DNA of 64,000 nt from Candidatus Helarchaeota archaeon (lineage in GTDB: Archaea; Asgardarchaeota; Lokiarchaeia; Helarchaeales; RDOG01), in assembly GCA_019058315.1 (NCBI GenBank), contig JAHPZH010000006.1, positions 1-64,000 of the forward strand, written 5' to 3'. Positions 31,586 through 64,000 of the stretch are shown here, one piece after another. Position 1 is the stretch's first letter. Each line of letters opens with the position of its first letter. The position numbers and the translations under genes were made by a program. The notes beneath the pieces were generated by a model, which made no database searches, was not told the DNA's origin, and saw nothing but the letters and a program-made list of their open reading frames with translations.

Positions 31586-32304
31586 TTAACCTATTATTTT
31601 TTTAATTTCCAACAGATTCTCGATAATATAATCTGGTTTTTTATCCTTAGAAAATTCAATACTGCGATTATGTTTTCTTTTTATTAAAACTGTATTTATT
31701 TTTGCATTTTTCCCTGCTTGAATATCCAAATCTGTATCCCCAACAATATACATATTCTTATTTGAGAGATTATACTTTTTCATAAATTCAAAAATGGTAT
31801 CAGGTTGGGGTTTTGCTTTGTATTGTTGTTCAGTTCCAAGGAGATAAATTTCATGAAATATTTTATTATAAGGTAAATCAATTAAATCTAGTTCGAGATT
31901 TGCAATTGAAGCCGGAGTATTACTAATAATACCTAATTTTATGTCGTTTATAAATTTTAGTTCGTTAATTATGCCTCTAGCATCATTAAATAAATAAATT
32001 TCTCCATTTTTAATCATTTTTTTTCTTTCAATTAAATCCTCTTCGTCGAAACGTTTCCAAAAATCATCTATATCAAAGATTCCCCAGTTTCTAAGATATT
32101 CATCAAATTTCCTTCCAGAACGCCAAAAGGTGTGAATTTCTTGTTTGGTAAGCTCTTTTTTAGTTAGAATAAAAACAATCTTTGTAATTATTACGTCTAG
32201 AATTTCAAAGAAATTCTTGGGAACGTGGATGAATACACTTTAGAAAAATATTTTCATAAATTTGTGCCATCCAAATCAAAAAGAAGTCCGATGTTATTTT
32301 TCAT
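31586..32304 (-). CDS. HAD-superfamily (phosphoglycolate phosphatase-like) hydrolase, 229 aa, split by a 29-nt BHB intron; exons 32304-32262 and 32232-31586
   Basis: Exon 1 encodes MKNNIGLLFDLDGT (HAD motif I); exon 2 continues ...IHVPKNFFEILD and carries motifs II-IV (IISN, KPQP, VGDTDLD). The ATG overlaps the end of the upstream gene. The ORF track shows only the C-terminal 143 aa. Confidence 0.85.
32233..32261 (-). other. Putative BHB-type pre-mRNA intron (29 nt) in the HAD hydrolase gene
   Basis: Minus strand TGGATG-GCAC-AA^A-TTTATGAAAA-TAT-TTTTCTAAA-GTGT-AT^T-CATCCA: 6-bp outer helix, 4-bp central helix, two 3-nt bulges, inner hairpin; splicing gives GAT GGC ACA ATC ATC CAC. Confidence 0.85.
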
Positions 32305-32764
32305 GATTTACACTTTTAGATATTTCTAATAAAATTTCAACTGCTTTTCTTACAAATTTAACACATTTTTCTTGTAAAATATTTAATTTAATAAGTTTTT
32401 CTCGATCTTCTGGATCTCTTAAGTCACATTGAATTAATTCATAACACATTTCGCTTTTAAATTCGTTTTTAAATCTTTTAATGAATTCATTAGCTAAATC
32501 ATATGCATATTCTTTATCTTCATTACTATTTGACCTACCATATTTTAAATTTATTGCCAAGATCGCACCATTTACGGAACCACAAACAGAACCACTTCTA
32601 CCTATTCCTCCACCAAATGCCGTGGCAATTTTAGGTGTTATTGGTCCAATATTCCATGCTTCTTGCATTGTCATTAAAACGCTCTCAGCACAATTATATC
32701 CTTGTGTAAAATATGCTGTTGCTTTCTTCGGAAATTCTTGATTCTTTTCTCTCATTTTTATCAC
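32294..32764 (-). CDS. C_GCAxxG_C_C family putative redox protein
   Basis: GYNCAESV, FGGGIG..GSVCGSVNG, MCYELI, KCVKFV. Confidence 0.88.
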   Translation of the reverse strand: MIKMREKNQEFPKKATAYFTQGYNCAESVLMTMQEAWNIGPITPKIATAFGGGIGRSGSVCGSVNGAILAINLKYGRSNSNEDKEYAYDLANEFIKRFKNEFKSEMCYELIQCDLRDPEDREKLIKLNILQEKCVKFVRKAVEILLEISKSVNHEK

Positions 32765-32847
32765 TAATTATTGAACATAAAGTAATAATACAAAAGATAT
32801 TATTTCAATTAATTTCATTAGTTAATAAAAAATAAGGGCTGATTTGT

Positions 32848-33627
32848 ATCGAAATAATTGATACCCATATTCATTCTATATTTAGAAGTAATGACGATTT
32901 TATTAATTTAGTTAAAAAAGGGGTCACAAAAGTTATTAGTGTATCCTTTTATCCAATTGTTCCTTATTATTCTAATACTTTAATTGATTTATTTAATTGG
33001 ATTATTGAAGATGAACCCCGTAGAACTGAATCTACAGGAATTACTATTCATCCTGCTATTGGTATCCATCCCCGATCGATACCTCAAGATCTAAATAAGG
33101 AAAATCTACAGAAACTTAAATTAAAAATCGAGAATGCTATTGAAAATAATAGGATTGTGGCATTAGGTGAAATAGGTTTGGAGTCTGCTACACTAATAGA
33201 AAAGGATATTTTTGAATTTCATCTTAAAATCGCAAAAGAATTCGATTTTCCTGTTATTATACATACTCCTAGAAGGAATAAAAAAGATATTACAAAAAAA
33301 TCTATAGATCTAATATTAAGAAATAAAATAGAAACGGGTGTTTTAGACCACATAGACGAACAAAATCTTTCATTAGCTAAAAATACTAGCTTAAATTTGG
33401 GTTTAACAGTTCAAATGGGAAAGTTAACTCCAGAAAATTTCTATAAAATAGTAAACGAAAATGAACATGAAAAAGATCGTTTTGTACTGAATACTGATAT
33501 TGGAAGAGACGAAGCAGATTTGTATGCGGCATATAAAGCTGTTAATATATTAAAAAATAACGGAATTAATGAACATTTAATAGATTTAATCGCATCTAAA
33601 AATGCAAAAAAGTTATTTAAATTATAG
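32848..33627 (+). CDS. TatD-family metal-dependent hydrolase; true start is upstream of the track ORF and apparently non-canonical (ATC)
   Basis: Frame open from 32836: ...IEIIDTHIH...AIGIHPRSIP...ALGEIGL...IHTPR...LDH...LNTD; no in-frame ATG/GTG/TTG before the DxHxH motif. Confidence 0.8.
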   Translation: MEIIDTHIHSIFRSNDDFINLVKKGVTKVISVSFYPIVPYYSNTLIDLFNWIIEDEPRRTESTGITIHPAIGIHPRSIPQDLNKENLQKLKLKIENAIENNRIVALGEIGLESATLIEKDIFEFHLKIAKEFDFPVIIHTPRRNKKDITKKSIDLILRNKIETGVLDHIDEQNLSLAKNTSLNLGLTVQMGKLTPENFYKIVNENEHEKDRFVLNTDIGRDEADLYAAYKAVNILKNNGINEHLIDLIASKNAKKLFKL

Positions 33628-33665
33628 AATATAAAAAAACAACAATTCAATTATAGTGATTTTTA

Positions 33666-34433
33666 ATGGAATTAACTAAAACTGATAAGATTTTTACTAT
33701 AATTTTAATTATTTTAGGAGTCCTTTCTGTATATTTTTATTTTAATCCTCAAGCAGGTGCTTTTTTAAGTTTTTCGTCTTGGAAAATTGATAGATTTTCA
33801 TTAAATGGAACATTATTAATTGTTTTTATTGTTTGTCTAATTGGTAATCTATTACCGATTCCTACTCCCTATACTTTTATTATAATTCCTGCAGCACTTT
33901 CGTTTCCAGATTTTTTCTGGTTAATTGGATTAATGGCCTCATTTGGAGCTTTATTTGGTGAAATTGTTGGTTTTTGGGTTGGTCGAGGAACAAAAGAAGT
34001 TTTAGAACATACTGACACAGATCTTGAAAAAATTGAGAAATGGAAAAAGCTCGCAAATGAAAGACCTAAATTTGTTATGTTTTTAATTTACATTTTCGGT
34101 TTAACTCCTTTAAATGATGATAATGTTATGGTACCTTTAGGTTTAGCAGAATTTGATTTTAAAAAGACTGTTTTTTCATGCTTTCTTGGAAAACTATCAA
34201 TGATGATGTTATTTGCAGCCGGTACAGTAATTGGAATAGATTTAATTTATAGTGTAATGGGATATTCCAGATTTGAACTATTAAACTATTTACCAGGTGC
34301 TTCAGGACAAGGTAATTGGTTGGAAGGTATGATATTATTTATTATTGTTATCCTAATAGTTTGGGGAATGTTAAAAATAGATATTGGTAGATTTTTAAAA
34401 GAAAAATATGGTGTAGAACAGATAAATGAATAA
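33666..34433 (+). CDS. DedA/VTT-domain membrane protein
   Basis: GALFGEIVGFWVGRG, FGLTPLNDD..MVPLG, FLGK; multiple TM segments. Confidence 0.8.
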   Translation: MELTKTDKIFTIILIILGVLSVYFYFNPQAGAFLSFSSWKIDRFSLNGTLLIVFIVCLIGNLLPIPTPYTFIIIPAALSFPDFFWLIGLMASFGALFGEIVGFWVGRGTKEVLEHTDTDLEKIEKWKKLANERPKFVMFLIYIFGLTPLNDDNVMVPLGLAEFDFKKTVFSCFLGKLSMMMLFAAGTVIGIDLIYSVMGYSRFELLNYLPGASGQGNWLEGMILFIIVILIVWGMLKIDIGRFLKEKYGVEQINE

Positions 34434-34439
34434 ATAACG

Positions 34440-35147
34440 GTGTGTATTTTGAAAGGTTTTATAATTATAGCTCATCGAGGAGCTAGTGGATATGAATTTG
34501 AAAATTCTATTTCAGCTTTTAAAAAAGCCATCGAATTAAAAGCGGATATGATAGAAACCGATGCTCAAATTACTCAAGATGGAACAATTATTTTAAATCA
34601 CGATAATGGTATTAAAAAGACCACTAATGAAAAAGGATTCATATCGAGATTAACATTAAATGAAATTAAAAAAATTCCGTTAAAAAATGGGGAAATAATG
34701 CCTACTTATCAAGATCTTTTAGATCTTTGTAAAGGTAAAATAGAAATAAATTTAGAAATAAAAGCACGAAGAGTTGAAAAACTAGTAACAGATATTACTC
34801 TAAAGAATGATATGCTAAAAGAAGTCGTATTTTCATCTTTTTCACTGAAAACTCTTAAAAAAATTAGAGAATATAATGATGATGCCAGATTGGCATATTT
34901 AATCATTATACAAGGTTCCTTTATTGCTAGGCTTAATTATTGGATGAAAAAATTAAGTGAATTAAAAGTTGAAAGTATTAATCCCTTTCATATGTTTATA
35001 TCTTCAAAACTTGTGAAAGAAGCTCATAAAAAAGATATTTCTATATATCCTTGGACAATTAATGATTCAACTAAAATTCGAAATTTAATAGAAGAAAAAA
35101 ATATAGATGGAGTATTTACAGATTACCCTGATATATTAAATAAGTAA
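34440..35147 (+). CDS. Glycerophosphodiester phosphodiesterase
   Basis: IAHRGAS..EN, ETD, HD, NLEIK, WTIND, TDYPD. Confidence 0.93.
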   Translation: MCILKGFIIIAHRGASGYEFENSISAFKKAIELKADMIETDAQITQDGTIILNHDNGIKKTTNEKGFISRLTLNEIKKIPLKNGEIMPTYQDLLDLCKGKIEINLEIKARRVEKLVTDITLKNDMLKEVVFSSFSLKTLKKIREYNDDARLAYLIIIQGSFIARLNYWMKKLSELKVESINPFHMFISSKLVKEAHKKDISIYPWTINDSTKIRNLIEEKNIDGVFTDYPDILNK

Positions 35148-36113
35148 TTAAGCACGTTTTTTCTTTTCTATTATTAATTTTCCTATATGCAAAAATAACT
35201 CATCTATATTTTGTCCTGTTTTAGCTGATGTTTCAAAGAAAAGATAATTTAATTCTTTTGCCAATTTTTTACCTTGTTTGTTAGATACCCTTCTTTGGTT
35301 TTCTAAGTCGATTTTATTACTAACTAACACGCAAACAACATCTTCTTTAGCAAATCGTTTGATTTCACTTACCCATTCACTAACGTTCCTAAAAGACTCA
35401 GGGTTTGTAATATCATAAAGAATTAAAATTGCTTCTGCACCTGGATAATAAGTCTTTCTAAATTTTTGAAATAGTCCCTCTCCTGAAACATCCCATGCAA
35501 CCAAATCAAGTGTGTCATCTTCGACAGGATAAGAATATTTGAAAATATCTACGCCCAAAGTAGGTTTATAATCCGCGATAAATCTTTTTTTAGCAAATTG
35601 AACCAAAAGAGACGTTTTTCCAACTCCTGAATCACCTGAAACAACTATTTTATAGGTATATCTTTTTTTTGGTTGTTTGCTTATTGGAGTTTCAACAATT
35701 TTTTTTGGTTTTTGATATTCTAATGAAATATCAGTTTTCCCTTTAATTACTTTAGCTACTTTCTCCACTGCCATTTCTGCGTAAGGAATGACAGAATCAA
35801 TGCTAGAATTCTGTTTTAATATTGTAGTTAAAATTTTTTGATCCTCAACTTCTGTAAACATCAGAATTTGGGTTTTAATTTGTAAGGTAGCATTTTTGAA
35901 AAAGCCAGTATCAAAATCTTTATGAATTTTTTCACCTAATGAGTGAAGAAGCGCTGTTAAAGCTCCAATTGTAAAATCTTCCAAAGAATCACTAAAAGTA
36001 GATGCAATAATTAGTCCATCAGAGTCTACTATTGCACATCCTAAAATATCGTCCGAAATTTTTACATATTCTCCTAAAACTTTATCTAACATTTCGGTTC
36101 CTATGATTGACAC
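35148..36113 (-). CDS. Roadblock/LC7 - Rab-like small GTPase fusion
   Basis: N-terminal AIVDSDGLIIAS roadblock; GDSGVGKT, PTLGVD, WDVSGE, NKID, ETSAK. Confidence 0.9.
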   Translation of the reverse strand: MSIIGTEMLDKVLGEYVKISDDILGCAIVDSDGLIIASTFSDSLEDFTIGALTALLHSLGEKIHKDFDTGFFKNATLQIKTQILMFTEVEDQKILTTILKQNSSIDSVIPYAEMAVEKVAKVIKGKTDISLEYQKPKKIVETPISKQPKKRYTYKIVVSGDSGVGKTSLLVQFAKKRFIADYKPTLGVDIFKYSYPVEDDTLDLVAWDVSGEGLFQKFRKTYYPGAEAILILYDITNPESFRNVSEWVSEIKRFAKEDVVCVLVSNKIDLENQRRVSNKQGKKLAKELNYLFFETSAKTGQNIDELFLHIGKLIIEKKKRA

Positions 36114-36256
36114 TGTTATTATTCCTCATTTTTTGTTTTTTTCTCATTGTTTTTTTTGAAATAAAAACTCAATAACAAATAAAACTCCATTATATAAATA
36201 TTTATAATGTGAATCGAATTTATTTAAAGAAATATTATAATTTGAGATGATTTTTC

Positions 36257-37753
36257 ATGAAAAAGAATAGTTATGATGCAATAATTATTGGTTCTGGTAT
36301 TGGTGGTTCAGCTTGTGCTGCACTTCTTTCGCATGCTGGTTTCAAAACCTTAGTTTTGGAAAAAAATGAAAGAATTGGTGGTTTTACATCTTGTTATCAA
36401 AAACAAGGGTTCACTATTGATATATCTATTCACGTCTTTTCAAATGGGATAAATGGGCGTTTTGGTAAGATTTTACATAGAATTGGCCTTGCAACTAAAG
36501 AAAAGGGAAAAATTCAAAGTCAATATCTTAAATTCGTTCCAAATTTAGATAGAAGAACTGCAATTAGGATGCCTAATCAAAAAAATTATTTTTCTATGGG
36601 ATCTATGCTTACACCACAAAGTAAAATTACACCTAAACCCGATTCTGGTAATATTCAAAAAACTGTGTCTAATTTAGGAATGAATAAAGAAGATATGAAT
36701 AATTTGATGAACATTTTTATGACAATATTGGGTCTTACAAAACGAAAAATCAGAAAATTAGAAGAAAACCAATTAACTTTAAAAAATTATATTGAATCAT
36801 TTACAAAAAGTCCATTTATCCACAGTTTTCTTGCGTTTACAGTTGGAGGAATGTTTGCGATTTCTCCACGAAGAGCAAGCGCGGCAGAATTTGTTAGAGG
36901 TATTCAAGAATGGTTTGGCTCCAATGATATGTCATATCCCCTAGGAGGAAGTATCGCTGTTCCACAAGCATTCCTTGAAGGTGTTAAAAAATATGGTGGG
37001 GATATTAGGACCAAAGCACGAGTTTCAGAAATCGTTATCGAGAATAATAGAGCTAAAGGGGTAATTGTTAATGATGAATTTATAGAATCCAGTTTTATTA
37101 TTAGTAATGCCGGAATAAAAAAAACTGTTCTCTCTCTAACAGGGGAAAAATTTTATGAGAATAATTACATTAACAAAGTTAAATCGTTAGTTCCATCAAA
37201 TTCTTCAATAACTTTTAAATTTGCTTTAAATAAACAAATAATACCCAAAGAATTTGGAATGGTAAATATATTCCATAAAAATTTATTAAATCCTAGTAAA
37301 AAATCGGAAGAAGGGGACACAAGATCTACAGGTTTTATGACTATGATACCGTCAAATCTCGATCCAAATCTAGCTCCTCCAGGAAAACAATTAATAATTT
37401 TTGGAACTTTAGCTCCAACAAAAGGCGTTGAAGATTGGAAAAAGTGGACGGATATGCATTATGAAGAAATTTTACGAAATTACCCAGAAATTGAAGACCA
37501 AATTATTTTTGTGGATGTTTCGACTCCTTTAGATTTGGCTCAACTTTCAGGAAAAAAGTATGGACCAATAGAATCTACGGCCTTAATTCCTTCGCAATCA
37601 GGACCTAATAGAATATCCTCAGAATTGCCGATTGATGGTCTTTATGTCGTAGGGGATAGTGCTGGAACTAATACTCATGGTATTGGAACACAACTTGCAG
37701 CAGATAGCGCTATCAAGTGTGCCGATTTGATAATTTCGAAATATAAGCAGTAA
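36257..37753 (+). CDS. Phytoene desaturase-family FAD-dependent oxidoreductase
   Basis: IIGSGIGG dinucleotide fold, LEKNERIGG, YPLGG, DPNLAPPGKQ, GLYVVGD. Confidence 0.85.
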   Translation: MKKNSYDAIIIGSGIGGSACAALLSHAGFKTLVLEKNERIGGFTSCYQKQGFTIDISIHVFSNGINGRFGKILHRIGLATKEKGKIQSQYLKFVPNLDRRTAIRMPNQKNYFSMGSMLTPQSKITPKPDSGNIQKTVSNLGMNKEDMNNLMNIFMTILGLTKRKIRKLEENQLTLKNYIESFTKSPFIHSFLAFTVGGMFAISPRRASAAEFVRGIQEWFGSNDMSYPLGGSIAVPQAFLEGVKKYGGDIRTKARVSEIVIENNRAKGVIVNDEFIESSFIISNAGIKKTVLSLTGEKFYENNYINKVKSLVPSNSSITFKFALNKQIIPKEFGMVNIFHKNLLNPSKKSEEGDTRSTGFMTMIPSNLDPNLAPPGKQLIIFGTLAPTKGVEDWKKWTDMHYEEILRNYPEIEDQIIFVDVSTPLDLAQLSGKKYGPIESTALIPSQSGPNRISSELPIDGLYVVGDSAGTNTHGIGTQLAADSAIKCADLIISKYKQ

Positions 37754-37871
37754 ATCTTCTTTTTTCTAAATTTCAGATCACTATTTGTGGAGTTTAAATA
37801 GGGATCTGAGAGTAAGAGTGCAATATGAAAAAAGAGTGAGAGCATTCCGAAAGTATTAGGATTTGATAAAA

Positions 37872-38102
37872 ATGATGCTACCATGTTTTAAATGTAAAAA
37901 TTGTAATACAAATTGGATTATAGATATCTATTCAGATTCTAAAGAAGGTATTATTCAAGAATTCATAAGCCAAATGTGTTGCCCAATCTGTGGGAAAAGG
38001 AATTTGAGAGTATGTTTTATTCGAAAAGTAGATGATGAAACTCCTGATATTATACAAGAGTCATTTAATAATTGTGATGAAATTACTCAATCTTTAATGT
38101 AA
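37872..38102 (+). CDS. Small zinc-ribbon protein
   Basis: CKNC...CCPICG; ATG at 37872/37875 inside the track ORF. Confidence 0.6.
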   Translation: MMLPCFKCKNCNTNWIIDIYSDSKEGIIQEFISQMCCPICGKRNLRVCFIRKVDDETPDIIQESFNNCDEITQSLM

Positions 38103-38127
38103 TTTGTATTCGAAAATTCTTCTTAAA

Positions 38128-38434
38128 TTAAGTTCCTCGTCTTCTATATTTACACCCTTTTATGGGACAAAATCTATATTGAGGAGCAGAAGATCCGGCA
38201 ACTGGTCTTTTAATAATCCATCCAGAAACCCAACCATGATGTGGACAGTAATATTTTTCTCTATCTTTTAAATTTTCATCTTGTTCGTCTTGTGTAACTT
38301 TAAAATTACATACATCATGTGTTTGTTTATATTTTTCATTTACTGGACATACATTCCCTTTACGTTTAATTAAATTTACGCGGGCTATCCTCAGAATTTA
38401 TACATCCAGTACAATCTACTGGAATTTCTTTCAC
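38128..38434 (-). CDS. Small double zinc-finger protein (~96 aa) split by a 16-nt BHB intron; exons 38434-38376 and 38359-38128
   Basis: Spliced product (M)KEIPVDCTGCINSEDSPRKGNVCPVNEKYKQTHDVCNFKVTQDEQDENLKDREKYYCPHHGWVSGWIIKRPVAGSSAPQYRFCPIKGCKYRRRGT; start GTG 38434, or ATT 38425 after SD GAGGTGA; absent from ORF track. Confidence 0.7.
38360..38375 (-). other. Putative BHB-type pre-mRNA intron (16 nt) in the zinc-finger gene
   Basis: Minus strand CCC-GCGT-AA^A-TTTAATTAA-ACGT-AA^A-GGG; contains the in-frame TAA; splicing gives CGT AAA GGG AAT GTA TGT in frame. Confidence 0.68.
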
Positions 38435-38596
38435 CTCATGTTCATATTTAATTATTGAAAGATTGTCTTTATACATTATAATAAATTAGTTTAATTTTTA
38501 AAAAATAAACTTCATATAATCCTTAATAAGAAAAGAAATTTATTTTATCAACTACTACTTAAAAAGCAATTATTTAATTAGGAGGAACTACTACCT

Positions 38597-40117: not shown

Positions 40118-40143
40118 CGTTATTTCTTGTTTTTATTTTATTT

Positions 40144-40788
40144 TTCCAATAGAAATTAAGGGGTCATTTATTTTTTATGTCAAATCTATTTGAGCTAATT
40201 TATTTTTTCCTAAAATTCTTATCAATTAACTCAATTTGATTTGAGTTAAATAATTTCTTTGGCCTGGAATTGACTTTACATTGTTTGTAAATACTTTAAA
40301 TTAATCATTCTAAAACTATTTACAAACATTTAATTTTTTGCTTAATTTGAAAAATTTTCAAAAGACTCCTTCATTTCCATTGGAATTTCACAATATCTAT
40401 TTACTTCTAATATTTAATCAATAAAAATTTATAAATTTATAAAGAAATTTTTACAGAGACTTTAAATATCCTTCTTATCCATAACTAACGACTCATATTA
40501 TTATCATAAATAAAAAGATAATAATTATATAGCTTAGCATATTATTATCAGTTCCAATGGAAAATAAGGGGTGTTAAAATCAATTTTTTTTTCTGGAAAT
40601 CTAATAAAAATGTTAGGACTAAAAGGAAAAAATAGAGAATTAAAATATAAATCAAATTTAAAATAGGTAAAATTTTGAGTTAATATTATTTTTAATAAAT
40701 GAAAGAGGATATAAAATCAGGTCTTATAACTTATAAAGTTCTTTATTTTTCTTACATAGATTTCATAACCCCTTCATTTCAACTGGAA
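40144..40788. other. Probable chromosomal replication origin (oriC): four ORBs in two inverted pairs flanking AT-rich spacers
   Basis: TTCCAATAGAAATTAAGGGGT (+40144-40164), TTCCAATGGAAATGAAGGAGT (-40365-40385), TTCCAATGGAAAATAAGGGGT (+40552-40572), TTCCAGTTGAAATGAAGGGGT (-40768-40788); match the archaeal ORB + G-string consensus; largest intergenic region in the window. Confidence 0.88.
40282..40328. promoter_or_regulatory. Dyad TGTTTGTAAATA-N23-TATTTACAAACA, copy 1 (inside the origin)
   Basis: Perfect 12-bp inverted repeat; same arms and spacing as the copy at 41006-41052. Confidence 0.75.
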
Positions 40789-41005
40789 CTTAAATATTAG
40801 TACCATTTAGATGATATCTAGGGACTATTAAATGGTCAGATCAAATCAAAAGAAATACGAAAAATTATATTATAGAACATTACAAAAAATTAATATAAAA
40901 TTTTTAATTTTTTTAAACAAATTTACAATTTATCAATTCATAAAAGGTCAATTTCAGGGTTAATAACTATAGAAAAAATTATTATCTATTAGAAATCAAA
41001 ATAAA

Positions 41006-41052
41006 TGTTTGTAAATAGAAGATCATAAATTATAAATTACTATTTACAAACA
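41006..41052. promoter_or_regulatory. Dyad TGTTTGTAAATA-N23-TATTTACAAACA, copy 2 (over the promoter of the 41063 gene)
   Basis: Perfect inverted repeat ending 10 nt before ATG 41063; brackets a TATA-like TTATAAA. Confidence 0.75.
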
Positions 41053-41062
41053 CATAATAAAT

Positions 41063-41458
41063 ATGGTTAAAGTTGAAAAATTAGGTATCATAATTAAAAA
41101 TGGAAAAAAAGTAATTGATGAAAACAATAGAAAGTTCAAAAATGAAATGAAAATACATAATGAAACATTAAAGGAGAATCAAAATTTATTTTTACGTGAT
41201 ACTTATGTGAAGAGGGGAAAAAAAATCTATAAATATTGGTATAGATATGAGTGGGATCCTATAAAAAAAAGAACAGTCCATAAATATATTGGAAAAGCGA
41301 AACCTAATGAAGAAGTTCCGGATCCTCCAATAAATCCATTATACGACCTTAATTTTAAAGAAATAAAAGGGACAAATGATATCATTTTATTATTAAAAGA
41401 TTACGAGCAGTATAAAGAATATTTTAAAGAATGTAAAATACAATACATAATAAAATAA
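41063..41458 (+). CDS. Small basic origin-adjacent protein, putative beta-sheet DNA-binding protein
   Basis: RGKKIYKYWYRYEWD...KRTVHKYIGKAKP...PDPPINPL; aromatic/basic three-stranded sheet motif. Confidence 0.65.
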   Translation: MVKVEKLGIIIKNGKKVIDENNRKFKNEMKIHNETLKENQNLFLRDTYVKRGKKIYKYWYRYEWDPIKKRTVHKYIGKAKPNEEVPDPPINPLYDLNFKEIKGTNDIILLLKDYEQYKEYFKECKIQYIIK

Positions 41459-41500
41459 ACATATTAAAGGTATTATTTAGAATAGAAAACTATATAGAGA

Positions 41501-42449: not shown

Positions 42450-43865
42450 ATGGAAAAGAAAAATCTTTCTGACAAAAATATATTTATTTTTGATCTAGAC
42501 GGGGTAATATATTTAGGGAATCAAATAGTTCCTGGAGCACTTGAAGTAATTAATAAATTAGAGAAATTCGGGAAAAAGATTTATTATCTTACAAACAATT
42601 CAACAAAGACTAGGGAGGATTATGTTAAAAAATTAGAAAAGATGGGGATAAAATCAAAAATTGAGAACATAATAACAAGTGCTTATGCAGCAGCTTTATA
42701 TTTAAAGAATAAAGAAATAAGGAAGAAAAGTAAAGCAAGTGTTTTTGTTATTGGGGAAAATGGTATTGTATCAGAATTAGAAAAAATGGAGTTTAAAGTC
42801 TATACAGAATTTAAAGAAGATTTAAAAATTGATTATGTTGTAGTTGGGTTAGATAGCAATTTTCATTATAATAAATTATCCGGTGGATTGTATTATATTT
42901 CAAAAGGTGCTGAATTCATAGCAACTAACGCGGATCCTACACTTCCAACCGAAAAATATGCTTTACCAGGAGCAGGAACTATGGTCTCTGCATTAGAAAC
43001 ATGCACAAATAAAAAACCTTCAATTATTATTGGAAAACCAAATCCTTACACAATAGAATCTATTTTAAAGAAAGAGAAAGCCAAAGCCAAAGACGCAGTA
43101 ATGGTTGGAGATAGAATTTCAACGGATATTTTAGCAGGTAAAAATGCCAATACAACTACAATCTTCGTAAAAACTGGAGCAGGAGAAAATGAAGCTAGTA
43201 AAATTCATTCTGAAAATATTTTTCCCGATTTAACATTAAAATCAGTAAAAGGTCTCCTCCCATTATTGGAAAAAGAAAAAATCGAAACAACAATGAGAAT
43301 CGCAAAACCAACAAAATTTTATTTTTTTCTAGAAAATTTTGCAAAATATACAGCTTTTCAAAGGATGGAAATGATCAATTTATTCAGACGAATATTAAAA
43401 GAGCAAGAATTTATATTAAAGAATTATAAGCAAGATTTTTTGCAAGTGTGGAAAAATTGGGTTGAAGAATATGGTGGAGCAGAAGTCGCAGATTTTTTTG
43501 TAAATAATTGTGATGAACTCATTTTAAAATGGTTAACTGTGATATTTCCATTTAGGAAAGAGGATTTTAAGATACTTATCAAGAAGGGAGGAACTAATGT
43601 AGATGTTGTTTTAGACATTTCGTATTTTTTTATGGAAAAAGAAATAAGTTTTATAGACTTTTTAATTAAAGAATTTGATATTGAAGAGGTTACAGCTCAA
43701 GTAGCATTAATTAGAACGTTAGCAGAAACAATTTTAATTTTTTGTCAAATATGGAATGAAATAAGTGGATATGATTTTACTATAATGCCTGAAGAGGAAA
43801 AAACAGATAAAAAGGGTAAAGGAATTGTGTTTAATATGCTTTTTACTCTAAGACCCTCTTTTTAA
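42450..43865 (+). CDS. HAD-IIA (NagD-like) phosphatase with ~190-aa C-terminal extension
   Basis: FDLDGVIY, LTNNS, ATNAD, IGKPN, VGDRISTD. Confidence 0.88.
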   Translation: MEKKNLSDKNIFIFDLDGVIYLGNQIVPGALEVINKLEKFGKKIYYLTNNSTKTREDYVKKLEKMGIKSKIENIITSAYAAALYLKNKEIRKKSKASVFVIGENGIVSELEKMEFKVYTEFKEDLKIDYVVVGLDSNFHYNKLSGGLYYISKGAEFIATNADPTLPTEKYALPGAGTMVSALETCTNKKPSIIIGKPNPYTIESILKKEKAKAKDAVMVGDRISTDILAGKNANTTTIFVKTGAGENEASKIHSENIFPDLTLKSVKGLLPLLEKEKIETTMRIAKPTKFYFFLENFAKYTAFQRMEMINLFRRILKEQEFILKNYKQDFLQVWKNWVEEYGGAEVADFFVNNCDELILKWLTVIFPFRKEDFKILIKKGGTNVDVVLDISYFFMEKEISFIDFLIKEFDIEEVTAQVALIRTLAETILIFCQIWNEISGYDFTIMPEEEKTDKKGKGIVFNMLFTLRPSF

Positions 43866-43955
43866 TCTACGTTAAATTATTTTGGTTTATAATTAAATTT
43901 TCGTGTAGTTTAATTATAAAAGTCTAAAAGTGTAGGGCGGAAAGGTGTAAAATCG

Positions 43956-44555
43956 ATGATAATTGATTTTGGATCTAAGACAATTCAAAGTAAAATTGTA
44001 TTTTATGGCCCTGCAATGAGTGGTAAGACGACAGCACTTAAATATCTTTTTAATAAATTTAATGGAGAATTAATCTCGATAACTACTAGCCATTTAGAGA
44101 AGCCTAGAACCTTATTTTATGATTATGGTTGTATAGATCTTAAATTCGGAGTTTGGAAATTAAAACTCAATTTATGGACCGCTACTGGTCAAGATTTTTA
44201 TTGTGCTACTCGAAGTACGGTATTACAAGGAGTTGATGGAATAATATTCGTCGCTGATTCTCGAAGAGAAATATTAGATGAAAACAAAAGAAGTTGGAGT
44301 GAATTAGTTGAATATTTTGGTGATAAGCTCGTAAATATAATACCTATAATTGTATGTTTAAATAAACAGGATCTTGAAAATTTAACACCTGAGGACTTAT
44401 TTAAAGAGTATTTAGATTTGAAAGAAAATGTAGAAATAATTAAAATGATAGCAATTAGGGGAGAAAAGGTATATGATGCATTTACAAGGATATTCAAAAA
44501 TATATTTTCAGTTCATAGTAACATAAAAGATACTATAAGTCATCAATTAAAATGA
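43956..44555 (+). CDS. MglA-like small GTPase
   Basis: KIVFYGPAMSGKTT, RTLFYDY, TATGQ, GVDGIIFVADS, NKQDL. Confidence 0.88.
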   Translation: MIIDFGSKTIQSKIVFYGPAMSGKTTALKYLFNKFNGELISITTSHLEKPRTLFYDYGCIDLKFGVWKLKLNLWTATGQDFYCATRSTVLQGVDGIIFVADSRREILDENKRSWSELVEYFGDKLVNIIPIIVCLNKQDLENLTPEDLFKEYLDLKENVEIIKMIAIRGEKVYDAFTRIFKNIFSVHSNIKDTISHQLK

Positions 44556-44595
44556 AAATAATATAAAAAATAAAAAAAAGATTAGAAGAACATAA

Positions 44596-44862
44596 TTATT
44601 GAATTATTTTATAATAGATTAGAGGTCGACCTCGCTTTTTAGTTGAAACTGGAAATTTTTCGATTTTGTTATCACGAACAAATTCGATAATATAATCATA
44701 TAACGTCGTTCGTGGTATGTTTGTTAATTTACTTAATTCTCCTCTTGTAATAGGCCCCTTATCTCTAATTAGTTGATATAGAAAATTTTCTAATTTTACG
44801 TCAGAATCTAATATCCATCGTCCCCTAACCTTTTTGGGTATAGTTTCATCGAATGAACTCAT
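44596..44862 (-). CDS. Small winged-helix DNA-binding protein
   Basis: GPITRGELSKLTNIPRTTLYD...KRGRPLIYY; SD AGGAG upstream. Confidence 0.85.
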   Translation of the reverse strand: MSSFDETIPKKVRGRWILDSDVKLENFLYQLIRDKGPITRGELSKLTNIPRTTLYDYIIEFVRDNKIEKFPVSTKKRGRPLIYYKIIQ

Positions 44863-45176
44863 TTTGGTATCTCCTTTGTATTTAATTATAAATTTTTTTT
44901 GATAAAATTATCAATTTTTCTATATATAAATTTTTTGGGTTTAGAGCGAAAAATAAGGAAATTCTCATGATGATCAAATCATAAAAAATAGAATTTTTGG
45001 TTTGGATAAAATAGAGATTTGTATAAATAATTATTTGAAGAAATATTCATGAAATCGAAAATATAATACATATTAACAATTTCACAAATTTACAAATTCA
45101 CTTTTTTGTGAATCACAAAAAATAAAGCCGACAAAAATCTTCTTTTTTAAAAAGAGACGAGTTTTCTTAATTTCTT

Positions 45177-45374
45177 ATTCATTCACATGTTCACAAATTG
45201 TAAAGCTTGATCTAATAATTTTTAAAATTACAAGAAAATTTTCCACAAGAAATAAGGGGGTCCAATTTTACATATGTGAAATTATATTTTTTTAGATTTT
45301 AATTAAAAAACTCTTAATGTAGGCAAACATAAAAAATCTTATTCATTGTGAATAAGTTGAATATGTGAATGAAT
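45177..45374. repeat. 17-bp inverted repeat (one mismatch) bracketing the isolated ORB, with further TTCACA/TGTGAA motifs nearby
   Basis: ATTCATTCACATGTTCA (45177-45193) versus TGAATATGTGAATGAAT (45358-45374). Confidence 0.6.
45241..45261 (+). promoter_or_regulatory. Isolated ORB with G-string
   Basis: TTCCACAAGAAATAAGGGGGT, same pattern as the four origin ORBs. Confidence 0.65.
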
Positions 45375-45381
45375 GAAAATG

Positions 45382-47148
45382 TTAAGTTCTTCGCTTGAAC
45401 TTTTTTTCTAGAAAAGATTTACTGAATGAAATTATCGTAGGTCTGCCATGAGGACAAGAAAATGGATCATCACAATTCTTTAAATTATTAATTAATTGTT
45501 CTATCCTTTTTTGTGATAAATCCTGTCCCGCGCGTATAGAAGAATGGCATGCCATAGTCTTAAACATTAAATCTTGAATATGACTATGAAATTCTTCTTT
45601 ACCAATATTTAATTCATCTAAAAATTCGGTTATTACTTTTTGATTTAAAATTTTTCCAAAAACTACAGGAACACTTCGAATTATAAAGGTATTTCCCCCA
45701 AAATGCTTAATATCAAAACCGAAATTTGCTAATTTTTCTAAATTTTGAGAATTTTGTAAAAAAATAGTTTCTTTTTGAGGGATATCAAATGTTATAGGAT
45801 TTAGTAAAAGTTGTGATTTAGTAAATTTACCAGCATTTTTTACTATTTTTTCATATTGTATTCGTTCAGCAGCTGCGTGTTGATCTATAAGATATAAATT
45901 TTCATCATCTTGAGTCGCAATATAAGTATTATGAAATTGTCCTATTAAGTACATTGAAGGAAAATGAGTTTTTTTAGAAGGAATAAATGTTCGTGGTTTC
46001 GTTTTATCGATAATTTGATTACTTTGAACCAATGAGTCTAAAGTTTTAGCCTTTGGAAAGTATGACTTAGATTCAGCTAATTTTTTCTTTCGTACCTTTG
46101 GTGTTTTTAGAACAGGAATAATTTTAGATTTTTGTAATTTTTGAGATATTACATCATAGACCGATTGATAAATTAGATCCTCATTTAAAAATCGAATTTC
46201 TTTTTTTGTAGGATGAATATTAACATCTATTTTTTCAGGATTAATAAGAATCGAGAGAATTACAATTGGGTGGCGTTTTTTTGGAATTAAATTACCATAT
46301 GCATCTTCTAATGCTCTGCTAATTAAATTAGATCTTATATTTCGATTATTTACAAATATTGCTTGATAATCTCGATTAACTTTTGAAATTGTGGGTTTAC
46401 TAATAAAGCCGTAAATTTGAATTTCATTTTCAAATTTAATAGGAATCATTTCTTTAGCTATTTCTTTACCATAAATATAAGCGATATTTTCCAGATAAGA
46501 CAAATTAGTTATTTTTTCTGAACTTTTTGGTGAAAATAAAATATTTTTATTATTATGAAACAGATTAAATGAAATAGAAGGGAAAATCAAAGCATATTTA
46601 CTGATAACATCTGTAATACGGTTTAATTCAGTTTCAGTTGATTTTAAATATTTTCTCCTTGCGGGTAAATTAAAAAATAAATCTCTAACAGAAATACTTG
46701 TTCCTTTATTACATCCAATTTCACTTTTCTCTTCAATGGTTCCCGCTTTTATAATAATTTTTATTCCAACATCTTTATCTTTAGTTTTTGTAATAATTTC
46801 AAGTAAAGATACTGCAGCTATACTCGAAAGGGCTTCACCTCTAAAACCAAAAGTTTTTAATGATTTCAAATCAGAAATGGCTTCAATTTTACTAGTAGCG
46901 TATCTTTCAACTGATAAAACAGCATCATCTCTAGACATTCCTTCCCCATCATCAGTAACCTCAATTAATTTTTTTCCTCCTTCATTTATTTTAACTATAA
47001 TGGATAAAGCACCTGCATCAATTGAGTTTTCAATTAATTCTTTAACTACAGATGCAGGGCGTTCAATAACTTCTCCTGCAGCAATTTTATTTCTTAAATT
47101 TTCATCTAAGACGTGAATTTTCGTTCCCATAATAGTACCTAACTCCAA
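45382..47148 (-). CDS. mutL: DNA mismatch repair endonuclease MutL
   Basis: IAAGEVIERPASVVKELIENSIDAG, GFRGEAL, DVNIHPTK, DQHAAAERIQYE, ACH, CPHGRP. Confidence 0.97.
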   Translation of the reverse strand: MELGTIMGTKIHVLDENLRNKIAAGEVIERPASVVKELIENSIDAGALSIIVKINEGGKKLIEVTDDGEGMSRDDAVLSVERYATSKIEAISDLKSLKTFGFRGEALSSIAAVSLLEIITKTKDKDVGIKIIIKAGTIEEKSEIGCNKGTSISVRDLFFNLPARRKYLKSTETELNRITDVISKYALIFPSISFNLFHNNKNILFSPKSSEKITNLSYLENIAYIYGKEIAKEMIPIKFENEIQIYGFISKPTISKVNRDYQAIFVNNRNIRSNLISRALEDAYGNLIPKKRHPIVILSILINPEKIDVNIHPTKKEIRFLNEDLIYQSVYDVISQKLQKSKIIPVLKTPKVRKKKLAESKSYFPKAKTLDSLVQSNQIIDKTKPRTFIPSKKTHFPSMYLIGQFHNTYIATQDDENLYLIDQHAAAERIQYEKIVKNAGKFTKSQLLLNPITFDIPQKETIFLQNSQNLEKLANFGFDIKHFGGNTFIIRSVPVVFGKILNQKVITEFLDELNIGKEEFHSHIQDLMFKTMACHSSIRAGQDLSQKRIEQLINNLKNCDDPFSCPHGRPTIISFSKSFLEKKFKRRT

Positions 47149-47160
47149 TTACAATCCATT

Positions 47161-49671
47161 TTATTCAAATAATTTTTTTTGAATTTGCTTTTTTTTGGAA
47201 ATTTTGTTTTTATTGGATATTTGAGAAACTTTAGGCATAGATTTTAAATGAACTGGATCTTCATCTTCTAATTTATTCAAAATTTTTTTGGCTCGAATAA
47301 TAATTTCATCTGGGAGTCCCGCTAATCTCGCAACCTGAATTCCAAAACTTCTATCTGAACCGCCTCTAACGATTTTTCTTAAAAATATTATGTGATCTCC
47401 ATGTTCTTTTATTGATATATGATAATTTACTACACGGGACATATAATTCTCTAATTCACATAGTTGGTGATAATGGGTAGCAAATAATGTTTTACATTTT
47501 AAATTATCATGAATGTATTCTACAACAGCCCAAGCAATACTTAAACCATCAAAAGTTGCAGTGCCTCTTCCGAGTTCATCTAAAATTACAAGACTTTTAT
47601 TAGTAGCGTTGTTTAAAATGTTCGCTGTTTCATTCATTTCAACCATAAAAGTACTTCTCATCTTAGTAATTTCATCAAATGCTCCAATTCTAGAAAAAAT
47701 GCGATCCACTACGCAAATTTTTCCAGATGATGCAGGAATAAAACATCCAATTTGTGCCATTATTAGGGTTAAAGCTACTTGTCGAATATAAGTACTTTTA
47801 CCAGCCATGTTTGGACCAGTTAAAATAATAATACAATTTTCATTATCTAAATAAATATCATTAGGAATGAATTGTTCATGTTCTAATAATTGTTCCACGA
47901 CTGGATGTCTTCCGTTTTTGATATCAATTACTGAATCATCAGAAATTATAGGTTTAATATAATTAAATTTTTTACTTATTTCAGCGAAAGTGCTAATTAA
48001 ATCCAAAAATGCAATATTTTTAGCTAATTCTTGAATCTTTTGGGTTTTTCCCATAATCTCATTTCGAATTTCTTGAAAAAGTTCATATTCAATATTTTTT
48101 ATCTTATCATCAGCTGATAGAATTTCAAGCTCCAATTCTTTTAATTCTGGGATTATGAATCGTTCAACATTTTTTAAAGTCTGTTTTCTAACATATCGTT
48201 TCGGGACCGAACTAAGGTTTGATTTTGTTATTTCAACATAGTAACCAATAATTTTGTTATATTTGATTCTTAAATTCTTTATTCCCGTATTATTTTTTTC
48301 CTTATTTTCAAATTCTAAAATTAAATTTTTACTATTTTTAGCCGTTGTCCTTAATTTATCCAACTCAGCATTATAACCTGATTTAATAAAACCTCCCTCT
48401 TTAATAGATGCAGGAGGATCATCCTTAATTGAGATTTCTATTAAATGGATAATTTCTGGAAATGATTGAAGATTAATTATGATATCTCCAATAAGAGGAG
48501 TGTCTTTTATATTTAATTCTTTTAATAGAGGGATAAGTTCTAAAGAATTTTTTAAAATAATTAAATCTCGTGCATTAGCACTGCCATAATTTATTTTAGT
48601 TATTAATCTCTCGATATCTTGAAATTTCTGTAATAATTCCCTTAAGTCATTGCGTATAAATAAAGATTTATATAACTCATCAACGTAATTTAAACGTTTA
48701 TTAATTTCTGGGATTTTTAAAAGTGGTTGTTGAAGCCAACGACGTAATAATCTTCCGCCGATACTTGTGACAGTCTGATCTAAAATTTCTATTAAAGTAC
48801 CTTTACGAGAACCATCATTGATATTTTGAAATATTTCCAAATTTTTCAAAGTGGATAAATCAAGAATCATATGATCAGAAGATTTATGTAATGATAATTT
48901 TCGTATATTAGAAATTTGAGCTTTTTGAGTTTCTTTTAAATATTCAAGGGCAGAACCAGCAGCAATAATAGCTTCTTTTAAATTTTCAATCCCAAAACTT
49001 TCTAAAGATAAAATTTTAAAGTGTTTCGTTAACCCGTCATAAGCATTTTGGTAATAATAATGATAATTTTCAAAAGGACTAATATGTAAATCACGAAATT
49101 CCGATTTAATCTTTTTTAAAAACTCATTATTTTCAAATAAAGTGAAAGGAAGGATACATTCAGAGGGATTAAATTGTGAAATTAAATTTAAAATGGTAGC
49201 CTCAGTCTCCTCTACTTTTTTTTCAACAATTTCACTAACAATAAATTCACCTGTAGAAATGTCAACAAAAGCAAGTCCAAATTTAGGACCTTCTTTAACT
49301 AGGCTCATCAAATAATTATTCACTTTATGGTTTAATAGAAAATCCTCAGTGATTGTTCCGGGCGTAACAATCCGTATCACATCTCTTTTTACTAATTTTC
49401 CTGGAACTGGATCTTCTAATTGTTCACAAATTGCTACTTTATAGCCATTTTTAACTAATGTCGGTAAATATTTATTTAATGTATGATAAGGGATTCCTGC
49501 TAATGGATTTCCTCCTCTCCGAGTTAAAACAATCCCTAATTCTTTTGAAAGAACTTCTGCATCTTGATCAAAGCTTTCATAAAAATCTCCTAATCGAAAT
49601 AATAATATACAGTTTTTATATTTCTTCTTTAATTGATAATATTGCTCCATCATGGGTGTTTTTTTTACCAT
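47161..49671 (-). CDS. mutS: DNA mismatch repair protein MutS (MutS1)
   Basis: TPMMEQY, FRLGDFYE, GPNMAGKST, STFMVEM, DELGRGT, FATHYH, SFGIQVA. Confidence 0.98.
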   Translation of the reverse strand: MVKKTPMMEQYYQLKKKYKNCILLFRLGDFYESFDQDAEVLSKELGIVLTRRGGNPLAGIPYHTLNKYLPTLVKNGYKVAICEQLEDPVPGKLVKRDVIRIVTPGTITEDFLLNHKVNNYLMSLVKEGPKFGLAFVDISTGEFIVSEIVEKKVEETEATILNLISQFNPSECILPFTLFENNEFLKKIKSEFRDLHISPFENYHYYYQNAYDGLTKHFKILSLESFGIENLKEAIIAAGSALEYLKETQKAQISNIRKLSLHKSSDHMILDLSTLKNLEIFQNINDGSRKGTLIEILDQTVTSIGGRLLRRWLQQPLLKIPEINKRLNYVDELYKSLFIRNDLRELLQKFQDIERLITKINYGSANARDLIILKNSLELIPLLKELNIKDTPLIGDIIINLQSFPEIIHLIEISIKDDPPASIKEGGFIKSGYNAELDKLRTTAKNSKNLILEFENKEKNNTGIKNLRIKYNKIIGYYVEITKSNLSSVPKRYVRKQTLKNVERFIIPELKELELEILSADDKIKNIEYELFQEIRNEIMGKTQKIQELAKNIAFLDLISTFAEISKKFNYIKPIISDDSVIDIKNGRHPVVEQLLEHEQFIPNDIYLDNENCIIILTGPNMAGKSTYIRQVALTLIMAQIGCFIPASSGKICVVDRIFSRIGAFDEITKMRSTFMVEMNETANILNNATNKSLVILDELGRGTATFDGLSIAWAVVEYIHDNLKCKTLFATHYHQLCELENYMSRVVNYHISIKEHGDHIIFLRKIVRGGSDRSFGIQVARLAGLPDEIIIRAKKILNKLEDEDPVHLKSMPKVSQISNKNKISKKKQIQKKLFE

Positions 49672-49756
49672 TTGATAGTAGCCTTCTCTCCAATTGACTA
49701 TTATAATTTATATTCTTTTTTACACTTTTTAACCCCTATCATAAAAAAGTCTTAGA

Positions 49757-49868
49757 TGGTGCGGGAGCTGGGAATTTCAGGAATATTAATATATCCCATT
49801 TGAACCCAGGAAGGCCTTCGCACATAGGGACCTGAACCCTACTCCTTTGACCACTTGGATACTCCCGC
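49757..49868 (-). tRNA. tRNA-Leu(CAG) with a 25-nt intron at non-canonical position 59/60 (49774-49798); CCA encoded
   Basis: Acceptor GCGGGAG/CTCCCGC, anticodon stem TAGGG/CCCTA, loop TT-CAG-GT; T arm interrupted by strict BHB CTGGG-TTCA-AA^T-GGGATAT-ATTA-ATATTCC-TGAA-AT^T-CCCAG. Confidence 0.93.
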
Positions 49869-63982: not shown

Positions 63983-64000
63983 GAAATGAAATAAATATGG

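What the first reader, a model, noticed from the sequence alone, without database searches (positions are those of the whole stretch)
32233..49798. Candidate genome-wide system: EndA-spliced micro-introns in mRNAs of an Asgard-like archaeon
Seen: two unrelated protein genes within 6 kb carry short AT-rich BHB inserts near their 5' ends (after codon 14 and near codon 20). Neither insert is a multiple of three, and each contains an in-frame stop. Their size and architecture match this window's tRNA introns (15 and 25 nt). Inference: two cases found by eye in 64 kb suggest many more genome-wide, so expression of a gene set may depend on the tRNA splicing machinery. That would be an intron-proliferation or regulatory layer conceptually like non-spliceosomal HAC1/XBP1 splicing in eukaryotes, which uses a tRNA ligase. 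In-frame (3n) introns would be invisible to my reading, so the count may be an underestimate. No endA or rtcB gene is present in this window.
Basis: inference. Interest (0 to 1): 0.9.

Follow-up and report, generated by a model that had tools for sequence, protein, structure and literature searches.

The report
tRNA-type micro-introns inside Asgard protein genes
Two protein genes in this Helarchaeota (Asgard) window, and at least seven more elsewhere in the genome, are interrupted by 16-33-base inserts shaped like tRNA introns; cutting at the standard sites rebuilds the normal protein, so these mRNAs most likely need the tRNA-splicing enzymes, which was known before for only one archaeal coding sequence.

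Summary
Observation confirmed. A HAD hydrolase gene carries a 29-nt insert (32233-32261, minus). A small zinc-ribbon gene carries a 16-nt insert (38360-38375, minus). Both fold as bulge-helix-bulge (BHB) motifs. Cutting after the second bulge base restores the frame, and the joined proteins align without a gap to uninterrupted orthologues in related genomes.

My genome scan found the frame-restoring excess only among stable BHBs: 7 hits at the canonical cut against 0-1 for cuts shifted by 1-2 nt. A naive descriptor showed no excess.

I checked nine interrupted genes in all: HAD, Zn-ribbon, RNase Z-like, EF-2 paralogue, aconitase-family, rrp41, HDAC, HTH-CBS and PAC2. The EF-2 paralogue intron sits at the same codon in another genus. 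Its inner stem there has an unrelated sequence but is still paired.

The genome encodes two EndA paralogues and RtcB. No RNA data exist, so splicing itself is inferred.

"Many more genome-wide" is only partly right. The set is about 10-20 genes, and five of the nine lie on this 314-kb contig. A HAC1-like regulatory role has no support.

The scan had already noted this phenomenon on other pieces of the same genome (rrp41, HDAC, HTH-CBS, EF-2).

The parts
32262..32304 (-). HAD hydrolase exon 1: ATG, 14 codons and the first base of codon 15. It carries HAD motif I (DLDGT).
   Evidence: matches the N-termini of orthologues
32233..32261 (-). 29-nt BHB intron of the HAD gene, with an in-frame TGA
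   Evidence: structure by hand; scanner and energy -6.4 kcal/mol
31586..32232 (-). HAD hydrolase exon 2, including the stop codon
   Evidence: Pfam HAD_2 profile positions 46-177, so the N-terminal part with motif I is missing from this frame; spliced protein of 229 aa
38376..38476 (-). Zn-ribbon gene exon 1. Start is ATG 38476, or more likely GTG 38434, three codons before the conserved PVDC.
38360..38375 (-). 16-nt BHB intron of the Zn-ribbon gene, with an in-frame TAA
38128..38359 (-). Zn-ribbon gene exon 2, including the stop codon. It has no usable start codon of its own.
   Evidence: no Pfam family
49757..49868 (-). tRNA-Leu(CAG) gene with a non-canonical T-loop intron
   Evidence: ARAGORN calls it only after excision of the intron
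49774..49798 (-). 25-nt strict BHB intron in the T-loop of tRNA-Leu. It serves as an internal reference for what this organism's EndA must cut.
14722..14822 (+). tRNA-Ser(CGA) with a 15-nt intron at 37/38. By the BHB rule the intron is 14758-14772.
63997..64000 (+). First bases of an RNase Z-like gene. Its 29-nt BHB intron lies just outside the window, at contig positions 64108-64136.

Best explanation
The two inserts are archaeal bulge-helix-bulge (EndA-type) introns sitting in protein-coding transcripts of a Helarchaeota (Asgard) archaeon.

Inferred mechanism: the pre-mRNA folds locally so that exon and intron bases form the helix / 3-nt bulge / 4-bp helix / 3-nt bulge / helix motif. The two-paralogue splicing endonuclease cuts after the second base of each bulge. 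RtcB joins the exons. Only the spliced mRNA encodes the full protein; the unspliced mRNA stops within 2-4 codons.

The two introns belong to a small genome-wide set, nine checked and probably 10-20 in all. Most were gained recently. They lie mostly in the 5' third of genes and are concentrated on this contig.

Shown: the motif geometry, exact frame and sequence restoration, the frame-specific genome-wide excess, conservation of one intron's structure across genera, and presence of the enzymes. Inferred: that cleavage and ligation actually happen on these mRNAs in the cell.
For: 1. Both junctions fit the canonical BHB with canonical cut sites.

2. The spliced HAD protein aligns from residue 1 through the junction (FDLDGT^IIHVPKNF) to uninterrupted orthologues in G001, G002 and G004 without a gap. 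The spliced Zn-ribbon junction recreates the R-K-G-x-x-CPVN seen in G001, G003 and G005.

3. In the genome scan the control was the 3' cut shifted by -2..+2 nt. BHB energy <= -3 kcal/mol with both flanks coding gives [0,0,7,0,0]. Energy <= -2 gives [0,1,9,0,1]. Allowing 2-bp outer helices gives 7 against 0-1, and cuts shifted by 3 nt (same frame) give 5 and 8, as expected.

4. Seven further genes are interrupted in the same way.
- Pfam profiles continue across the junction in four: GTP_EFTU 2-79|82-151, RNase_PH 1-59|64-129, Aconitase 20-129|130-305, Hist_deacetyl 1-152|153-295.
- In PAC2 the downstream exon starts at profile position 14.
- In HTH-CBS the upstream exon ends mid-way through HTH_3, at profile position 28 of 55.
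- The RNase Z-like and aconitase-family junctions align without a gap to orthologues.

5. The EF-2 paralogue of G001, a 'Candidatus Helarchaeota' MAG of another genus, has a 33-nt BHB intron at the same DTPGH^VD site. The exon-borne helices are the same. One central pair changes from G-U to G-C. The inner stem has an unrelated sequence but is still paired.

6. There are two EndA paralogues. One keeps the Tyr/His/Lys catalytic residues (my reading of the sequence); the other lacks the His. RtcB is also present.

7. A contig from an independent sediment sample, about 98% identical, spans the HAD intron with no gap (record 17).

8. rrp41 is interrupted, and the only other RNase_PH hit in the genome is 29% identical.
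Against: - No RNA-level evidence exists.
- For the Zn-ribbon gene, a single 1-nt frame slip inside a 30-nt overlap of the two frames would also join them. Its local fold is no better than shuffled sequence (z = -1.2) and its BHB is weak (-1.9 kcal/mol).
- The orthologues of the two in-window genes carry no intron, so these two introns have no covariation evidence of their own.
- A naive BHB descriptor gives 1.9 million hits and no frame-specific excess.
- Motifs weaker than about -2 kcal/mol show no excess.
- The genome is a MAG with 6.6% estimated contamination, and the cases are very unevenly spread over contigs.
- Some hits of my scan proved to be adjacent genes or an IS insertion.
Confidence: 0.8

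Rival explanations
1. The interrupted genes are dead or dying pseudogenes. Short insertions, perhaps copies of tRNA-intron-like sequence, broke them, and the BHB shape has no consequence for mRNA.
For: No transcript data exist. HAD and the Zn-ribbon protein are not obviously essential. Their orthologues in relatives lack the insert, as expected for recent damage.
Against: - In nine unrelated genes the insert is delimited to the base by canonical BHB cut sites.
- Both flanks stay open and match orthologues.
- The excess is frame-specific.
- rrp41 has no close second copy.
- The EF-2-paralogue intron is kept at one site in two genera, with a changed inner stem that still pairs.
- By established biochemistry, archaeal EndA recognises the BHB itself whatever RNA it sits in (cbf5 mRNA, PMC2738675; HVO_1309 5' UTR, PMC7714728).
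Confidence: 0.07
2. For the Zn-ribbon gene only: the break is a 1-nt frameshift, either an assembly error, a real mutation or programmed slippage. The 16-nt BHB is then coincidence.
For: The two frames overlap openly for about 30 nt, so one slip joins them. The region's fold is not better than shuffles. The orthologue alignment has variable length just upstream of the junction.
Against: A BHB with all-GC outer helix and canonical cuts has the one length class (1 mod 3) that restores the frame, and it recreates the conserved R-K-G. Motifs this good occur about 3e-6 to 5e-6 per site and length. Eight other genes in the same genome show the same solution. A contig from another sample spans the site with 1 gap somewhere in 1353 nt; where that gap lies was not shown.
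Confidence: 0.12
3. The introns form a regulatory layer. Splicing is conditional, analogous to HAC1/XBP1, so that expression of the gene set is gated by EndA/RtcB activity or by RNA folding.
For: Only circumstantial. The introns place a stop within 2-4 codons, eight of nine lie in the 5' third of the gene, and several sit in catalytic motifs.
Against: No expression data exist. The host genes share no pathway: HAD, RNase Z-like, EF-2 paralogue, aconitase-family, rrp41, HDAC, PAC2, HTH-CBS and a Zn-ribbon protein. Eight of nine introns are missing in the nearest genus, which fits neutral recent gain better than a conserved control circuit.
Confidence: 0.1

Closest known systems
cbf5 pre-mRNA intron of Crenarchaeota (Watanabe 2002; Yokobori 2009, PMC2738675)
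   Same: A BHB intron inside a protein-coding sequence, removed by the tRNA-splicing endonuclease and a ligase. It also shows lineage-specific gain and loss.
   Different: That is one gene family in Desulfurococcales and Sulfolobales. Here there are nine unrelated genes in one Asgard genome, and none of them is cbf5. The introns are 16-33 nt, and splicing is not yet shown experimentally. As of 2020, PMC7714728 states that cbf5 was the only such mRNA example apart from its own 5' UTR case.
BHB intron in the 5' UTR of HVO_1309 mRNA, Haloferax volcanii (PMC7714728)
   Same: An EndA substrate within an mRNA. Its removal matters for expression.
   Different: It lies in the untranslated leader, not in the reading frame. 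It is a single case, found by EndA knock-down, and it is euryarchaeal.
Heavily interrupted tRNA genes of Asgard archaea (PMC11291895; bioRxiv 10.64898/2026.10.13.758758)
   Same: The same motif, the same size class and the same inferred two-paralogue EndA. Those papers report many apparently independent recent gains. The tRNA-Leu and tRNA-Ser introns of this window are of that kind.
   Different: Those studies deal with tRNA genes. A text search of both found no mention of introns in protein-coding genes.
HAC1/XBP1 unconventional splicing in eukaryotes
   Same: Non-spliceosomal excision of a short intron from an mRNA by an endonuclease plus a tRNA-type ligase (RtcB in metazoa). The excision changes the reading frame.
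   Different: HAC1/XBP1 is cut by IRE1 at twin stem-loops, not by EndA at a BHB. It is stress-regulated and cytoplasmic. None of these features is seen or testable here, so this is a functional analogy only.

Membership tests
Archaeal BHB (EndA-type) intron | [quoted passage not shown] | tested here: met
   HAD: 6-bp outer, 4-bp central, 4-bp inner helix. Zn-ribbon: 3-bp, 4-bp, 2-bp. The same geometry holds in the window's tRNA-Leu intron.
Archaeal BHB (EndA-type) intron | Cutting after the second base of each bulge and joining the ends gives the functional product | tested here: met
   The frame is restored, and the junctions align without a gap to uninterrupted orthologues. The same holds for the RNase Z-like and aconitase-family genes, and Pfam profiles continue across four other junctions.
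Archaeal BHB (EndA-type) intron | The genome encodes the splicing endonuclease and an RtcB-type ligase | tested here: met
   Two EndA paralogues, each with the N- and C-terminal domains; one lacks the catalytic His by my reading. RtcB scores 582 bits. That they assemble as (alpha-beta)2 is inferred, not tested.
Archaeal BHB (EndA-type) intron | The structure is kept while the sequence drifts in orthologous introns | tested here: inconclusive
   Met for the EF-2-paralogue intron shared by G000 and G001, though that is only two sequences. It cannot be tested for the two in-window introns, whose orthologues have no intron.
Archaeal BHB (EndA-type) intron | Excision seen in RNA: a spliced transcript, or a free or circular intron | not testable with these tools
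   No RNA run holds this DNA.
cbf5-type pre-mRNA intron | The host gene is cbf5 (pseudouridine synthase), with the intron at the conserved crenarchaeal site | tested here: not met
   The host genes here are a HAD hydrolase and a Zn-ribbon protein. The cbf5 gene of this genome was not examined.
HAC1/XBP1-type unconventional splicing | Splice sites lie in the loops of twin stem-loops cut by IRE1, and splicing is induced by stress | tested here: not met
   The splice sites lie in 3-nt bulges of a BHB. An IRE1 homologue and regulation of splicing were not tested.

The most novel reading that the evidence does not exclude
This Helarchaeota lineage is caught while tRNA-type introns spread into protein-coding genes. 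The gains are recent and mostly lineage-specific. They are biased to the 5' third of genes and to GC-richer conserved motifs that can supply the exon half of the BHB. They are clustered in one chromosomal region. The cell therefore has to cope with splicing of mRNAs before or during translation. That would make it a prokaryotic, Asgard model for intron gain in coding sequence and for partial uncoupling of transcription and translation, possibly with condition-dependent splicing.
Probability: 0.25. Interest if true: 0.88.

Novelty: new member of a known kind. Interest (0 to 1): 0.72.

Why it matters
In the papers I searched, enzyme-spliced (BHB) introns in archaeal mRNAs are known from one coding sequence (cbf5) and one 5' UTR (PMC7714728).

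Nine unrelated interrupted genes in a single Asgard genome, one shared between genera, would show that the tRNA-splicing machinery can routinely service mRNAs in the closest prokaryotic relatives of eukaryotes.

It also matters practically. Gene callers truncate or miss these genes. Here the HAD protein loses its catalytic motif I and the Zn-ribbon gene is not called at all, so Asgard proteomes and pseudogene counts are biased.

The set offers concrete, cheap substrates for testing Asgard EndA specificity. It also lets one ask how an organism with coupled transcription and translation tolerates introns in reading frames.

Tried and rejected
- Naive BHB descriptor (outer helix >= 3 bp, 4-bp central helix, lengths 11-110). 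It gave 1.9 million hits. Frame-restoring counts were equal at canonical and shifted cut sites, even after adding codon-usage scores, a 'no start codon' filter or long inner stems. An excess appeared only after filtering by nearest-neighbour energy of the constrained BHB.
- Relaxed motif with one mismatch in the central helix. The background was too high to read.
- RNA evidence. No RNA holder is listed for this DNA.
- Reads laid from four DNA runs. No contig skips either intron among the joints listed. Most differences and 31 indels were not shown, so strain-level covariation could not be read.
- Rfam at gathering thresholds and default ARAGORN miss the tRNA-Leu gene.
- Scan hits rejected on inspection:
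  - porA/porB-like neighbours (C11 112892);
  - an unnamed ORF next to an AIR-synthase-family gene (C11 67587);
  - an IS605 TnpB HTH next to a methyltransferase fragment (C5 955984);
  - an esterase whose downstream frame runs through the putative intron (C1 264051).
- Hits left unresolved: C3 466132, C5 662151, C3 476650, C5 670743, C11 721828, C7 2187 and C6 107309.
- Fetching a whole relative genome for a motif-free census was considered. I dropped it because the region quota would not cover the genome.
Full report
**What is in the window**

The window is the first 64 kb of a 314-kb contig (C6) of a 5.8-Mb, 30% GC, 12-contig MAG. The nearest named relative found is a 'Candidatus Helarchaeota' MAG, so 'Asgard-like' holds.

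On the minus strand a HAD-hydrolase gene starts at ATG 32304. It encodes 14 codons ending in motif I (DLDGT) and hits TGA two codons later. The rest of the gene (31586-32232) is in another frame that opens only after a TAA, so no single frameshift can join them.

The junction folds as a canonical hBHBh'. The outer helix is UGGAUG/CAUCCA, the central helix GCAC/GUGU, the bulges AA|A and AU|U, and the inner helix UUUA/UAAA. Cutting after the second bulge base removes 29 nt (32233-32261) and yields ...FDLDGT-I-IHVPKNF....

The second gene is a small four-Cys protein with no Pfam family. It has a 16-nt insert (38360-38375) flanked by CCC/GGG, GCGU/ACGU and two AA|A bulges. Removal joins ...SPR-K-GNVCPVNEKY....

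The window's two tRNA genes carry a 15-nt (tRNA-Ser, position 37/38) and a 25-nt (tRNA-Leu, T-loop, 49774-49798) BHB intron. The tRNA-Leu gene is recognised only after that excision.

**Do the predicted junctions make sense?**

Orthologues of the HAD gene in a sister genus (G001) and in two genomes of the same order (G002, G004) are uninterrupted. The spliced protein aligns to them from the first residues through the junction without a gap.

Orthologues of the Zn-ribbon gene (G001, G003, G005) are also uninterrupted. They read R-K-G/D-x-x-CPVN exactly where the splice recreates R-K-G.

For the HAD gene the motif is strong, at -6.4 kcal/mol. Only 418 motifs at or below -5 kcal/mol exist over 11.6 million positions times 58 lengths.

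For the Zn-ribbon gene the motif is weak (-1.9 kcal/mol) and the local fold is not better than shuffles. One base slip could also join its frames. I therefore rate that intron lower, about 0.75 against about 0.95 for HAD.

**Genome-wide test**

I scanned both strands of the whole genome for strict BHBs. I asked whether excision fuses two open, coding-looking frames that are closed in the unspliced DNA. The control kept the same motifs but shifted the 3' cut by 1 or 2 nt.

- With a bare descriptor there are 1.9 million motifs and no excess at the canonical cut.
- After filtering by the nearest-neighbour energy of the constrained BHB, the signal is clean. Energy <= -3 kcal/mol with both flanks coding gives [0,0,7,0,0] for shifts -2..+2. 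Energy <= -2 gives [0,1,9,0,1].
- With introns of 40 nt or less the result is the same.
- Allowing 2-bp outer helices gives 7 against 0-1. Shifts of 3 nt, which keep the frame, behave like the canonical cut.
- Motifs weaker than about -2 kcal/mol show no excess.

So there is a real set, but a small one.

**The other cases**

| Gene | Contig and position | Intron | Evidence |
|---|---|---|---|
| EF-2 paralogue | C6 81229-81259 | 31 nt | Junction DTPGH^VD; GTP_EFTU profile 2-79\|82-151 |
| RNase Z-like | C6 64108-64136 | 29 nt | Junction FDCGE^GTQ; just past the window end; gap-free alignment to orthologues |
| Aconitase-family | C6 232831-232857 | 27 nt, in-frame stop | Junction GGD^SHT; Aconitase profile 20-129\|130-305; gap-free alignment |
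| rrp41 | C10 138945-138976 | 32 nt | RNase_PH profile 1-59\|64-129 |
| HDAC | C10 146806-146837 | 32 nt | Hist_deacetyl profile 1-152\|153-295; 2-bp outer helix |
| HTH-CBS regulator | C5 499169-499201 | 33 nt, in-frame stop | HTH_3 cut at profile position 28 of 55 |
| PAC2-family | C1 81769-81794 | 26 nt | Downstream exon starts at profile position 14 |

Several other scan hits turned out to be neighbouring genes or an IS insertion. A handful remain unresolved.

With the two window genes that makes nine. Five of the nine lie on contig C6, which is 5% of the genome. Eight of nine lie in the first third of the gene.

**Comparative evidence**

The EF-2 paralogue of G001, a different genus of the same family, has a 33-nt BHB intron at the same codon boundary. 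The exon-borne helices are identical. One central pair is G-C instead of G-U. The inner stem is unrelated in sequence but still paired: 8 bp there against 10 bp here. The G001 intron begins with an in-frame TAG. Order- and class-level relatives have uninterrupted genes of about 730 codons.

The HAD, Zn-ribbon, aconitase-family, RNase Z-like, rrp41 and HDAC orthologues of G001-G005 are uninterrupted. No clear orthologue of the HTH-CBS gene was found in G001-G004. The PAC2 orthologues were not checked.

This pattern fits mostly recent gains. It parallels what has been reported for Asgard tRNA introns (bioRxiv 10.64898/2026.10.13.758758).

**Machinery**

The genome has two EndA paralogues of 184 and 201 aa, each with both endonuclease domains. 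By my reading of the sequences, the first keeps the catalytic Tyr/His/Lys and the second lacks the His. That is what is expected of a catalytic plus a structural subunit. It also has one RtcB. The broad-specificity (alpha-beta)2 architecture is an inference from these features and from the literature (PMC5829648).

**Independent DNA, no RNA**

No RNA run holds this DNA. Contigs from other sediment samples, about 97-98% identical, cover the region. One of them spans the HAD intron with no gap. Another spans the Zn-ribbon intron with one gap somewhere in 1353 nt, whose position was not shown. The inserts are therefore not an artefact of one assembly.

**Relation to what is known**

The mechanism is the known archaeal BHB splicing pathway. 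In mRNAs it has been documented for the cbf5 coding sequence in Crenarchaeota (PMC2738675) and for one 5' UTR in Haloferax. The Haloferax paper states that cbf5 was the only other example (PMC7714728).

The Asgard tRNA-intron papers do not mention introns in protein genes. My other literature searches found no report of such introns either.

The scan itself had already flagged rrp41, HDAC, HTH-CBS and the EF-2 paralogue on other pieces of this genome. I re-derived or tested each of them here.

**Verdict**

The EndA/RtcB reading is the best-supported mechanism, at 0.8; the remaining doubt is mostly the lack of RNA data.

The 'system' is real but modest, about 10-20 genes, and oddly clustered. 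The regulatory, HAC1-like idea is unsupported. I file these as new members of a known kind. Interest is high because of the number of genes, the Asgard host and the direct testability.

Noticed in passing
contig C6 (window = C6:1-64000); C6 64108-64136, 81229-81259, 232831-232857: Five of the nine checked mRNA introns lie on this 314-kb contig, which is 5% of the genome. Two more lie 8 kb apart on C10. Contig C6 is also slightly lower in GC (0.288 against 0.30-0.33). Either gains are local, or the MAG (6.6% contamination) mixes populations.
   Followed up: partly
all nine intron sites (window 32233-32261, 38360-38375, and other contigs): Eight of nine introns lie in the first third of the gene. 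Many sit inside conserved, GC-richer motifs: DLDGT, DTPGH, GGDSHT, FDCGEGT, DHDAHAGNG. Those motifs supply the exon half of the BHB. In most cases the 3' bulge reads A-A|N.
   Followed up: partly
window 32836-33627 (+): A TatD-family gene (Pfam match from residue 8, profile 1-253) has no in-frame ATG, GTG or TTG before GTG 33157 (residue 108), far inside the domain. The conserved IIDTHIH begins right after ATA/ATT codons. This points to a non-canonical start codon or a missed feature at the 5' end.
   Followed up: partly
window 40118-41063: About 0.9 kb with no ORF of 60 aa or more on either strand. DNA depth from the other samples drops here (bin 40138-40754).
   Followed up: no
window 35148-36113 (-): An ORF whose C-terminal half carries a Ras-like P-loop (GDSGVGKT), behind an N-terminal half of about 150 aa. 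It looks like the roadblock/LC7 plus small-GTPase type common in Asgard archaea. This is read from sequence only and was not scanned.
   Followed up: no
L089 (G005:C112:4662-5120, minus strand): The nearest HTH-CBS relative in G005 has one in-frame TGA inside the match. It could be selenocysteine, a break or another in-frame insert.
   Followed up: no
L043 (G000:C5:955634-956315): An IS605-type TnpB N-terminal HTH lies directly upstream of the C-terminal half of a methyltransferase domain. This is probably an IS insertion into a methyltransferase gene. It was a false positive of the intron scan.
   Followed up: partly
L050 (G001:C23) against window C6: The Zn-ribbon and EF-2-paralogue orthologues lie about 50 kb apart on one contig of the Helarchaeota relative, against 43 kb here. 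The region is therefore syntenic, and contig C6 is genuine Helarchaeota DNA.
   Followed up: partly
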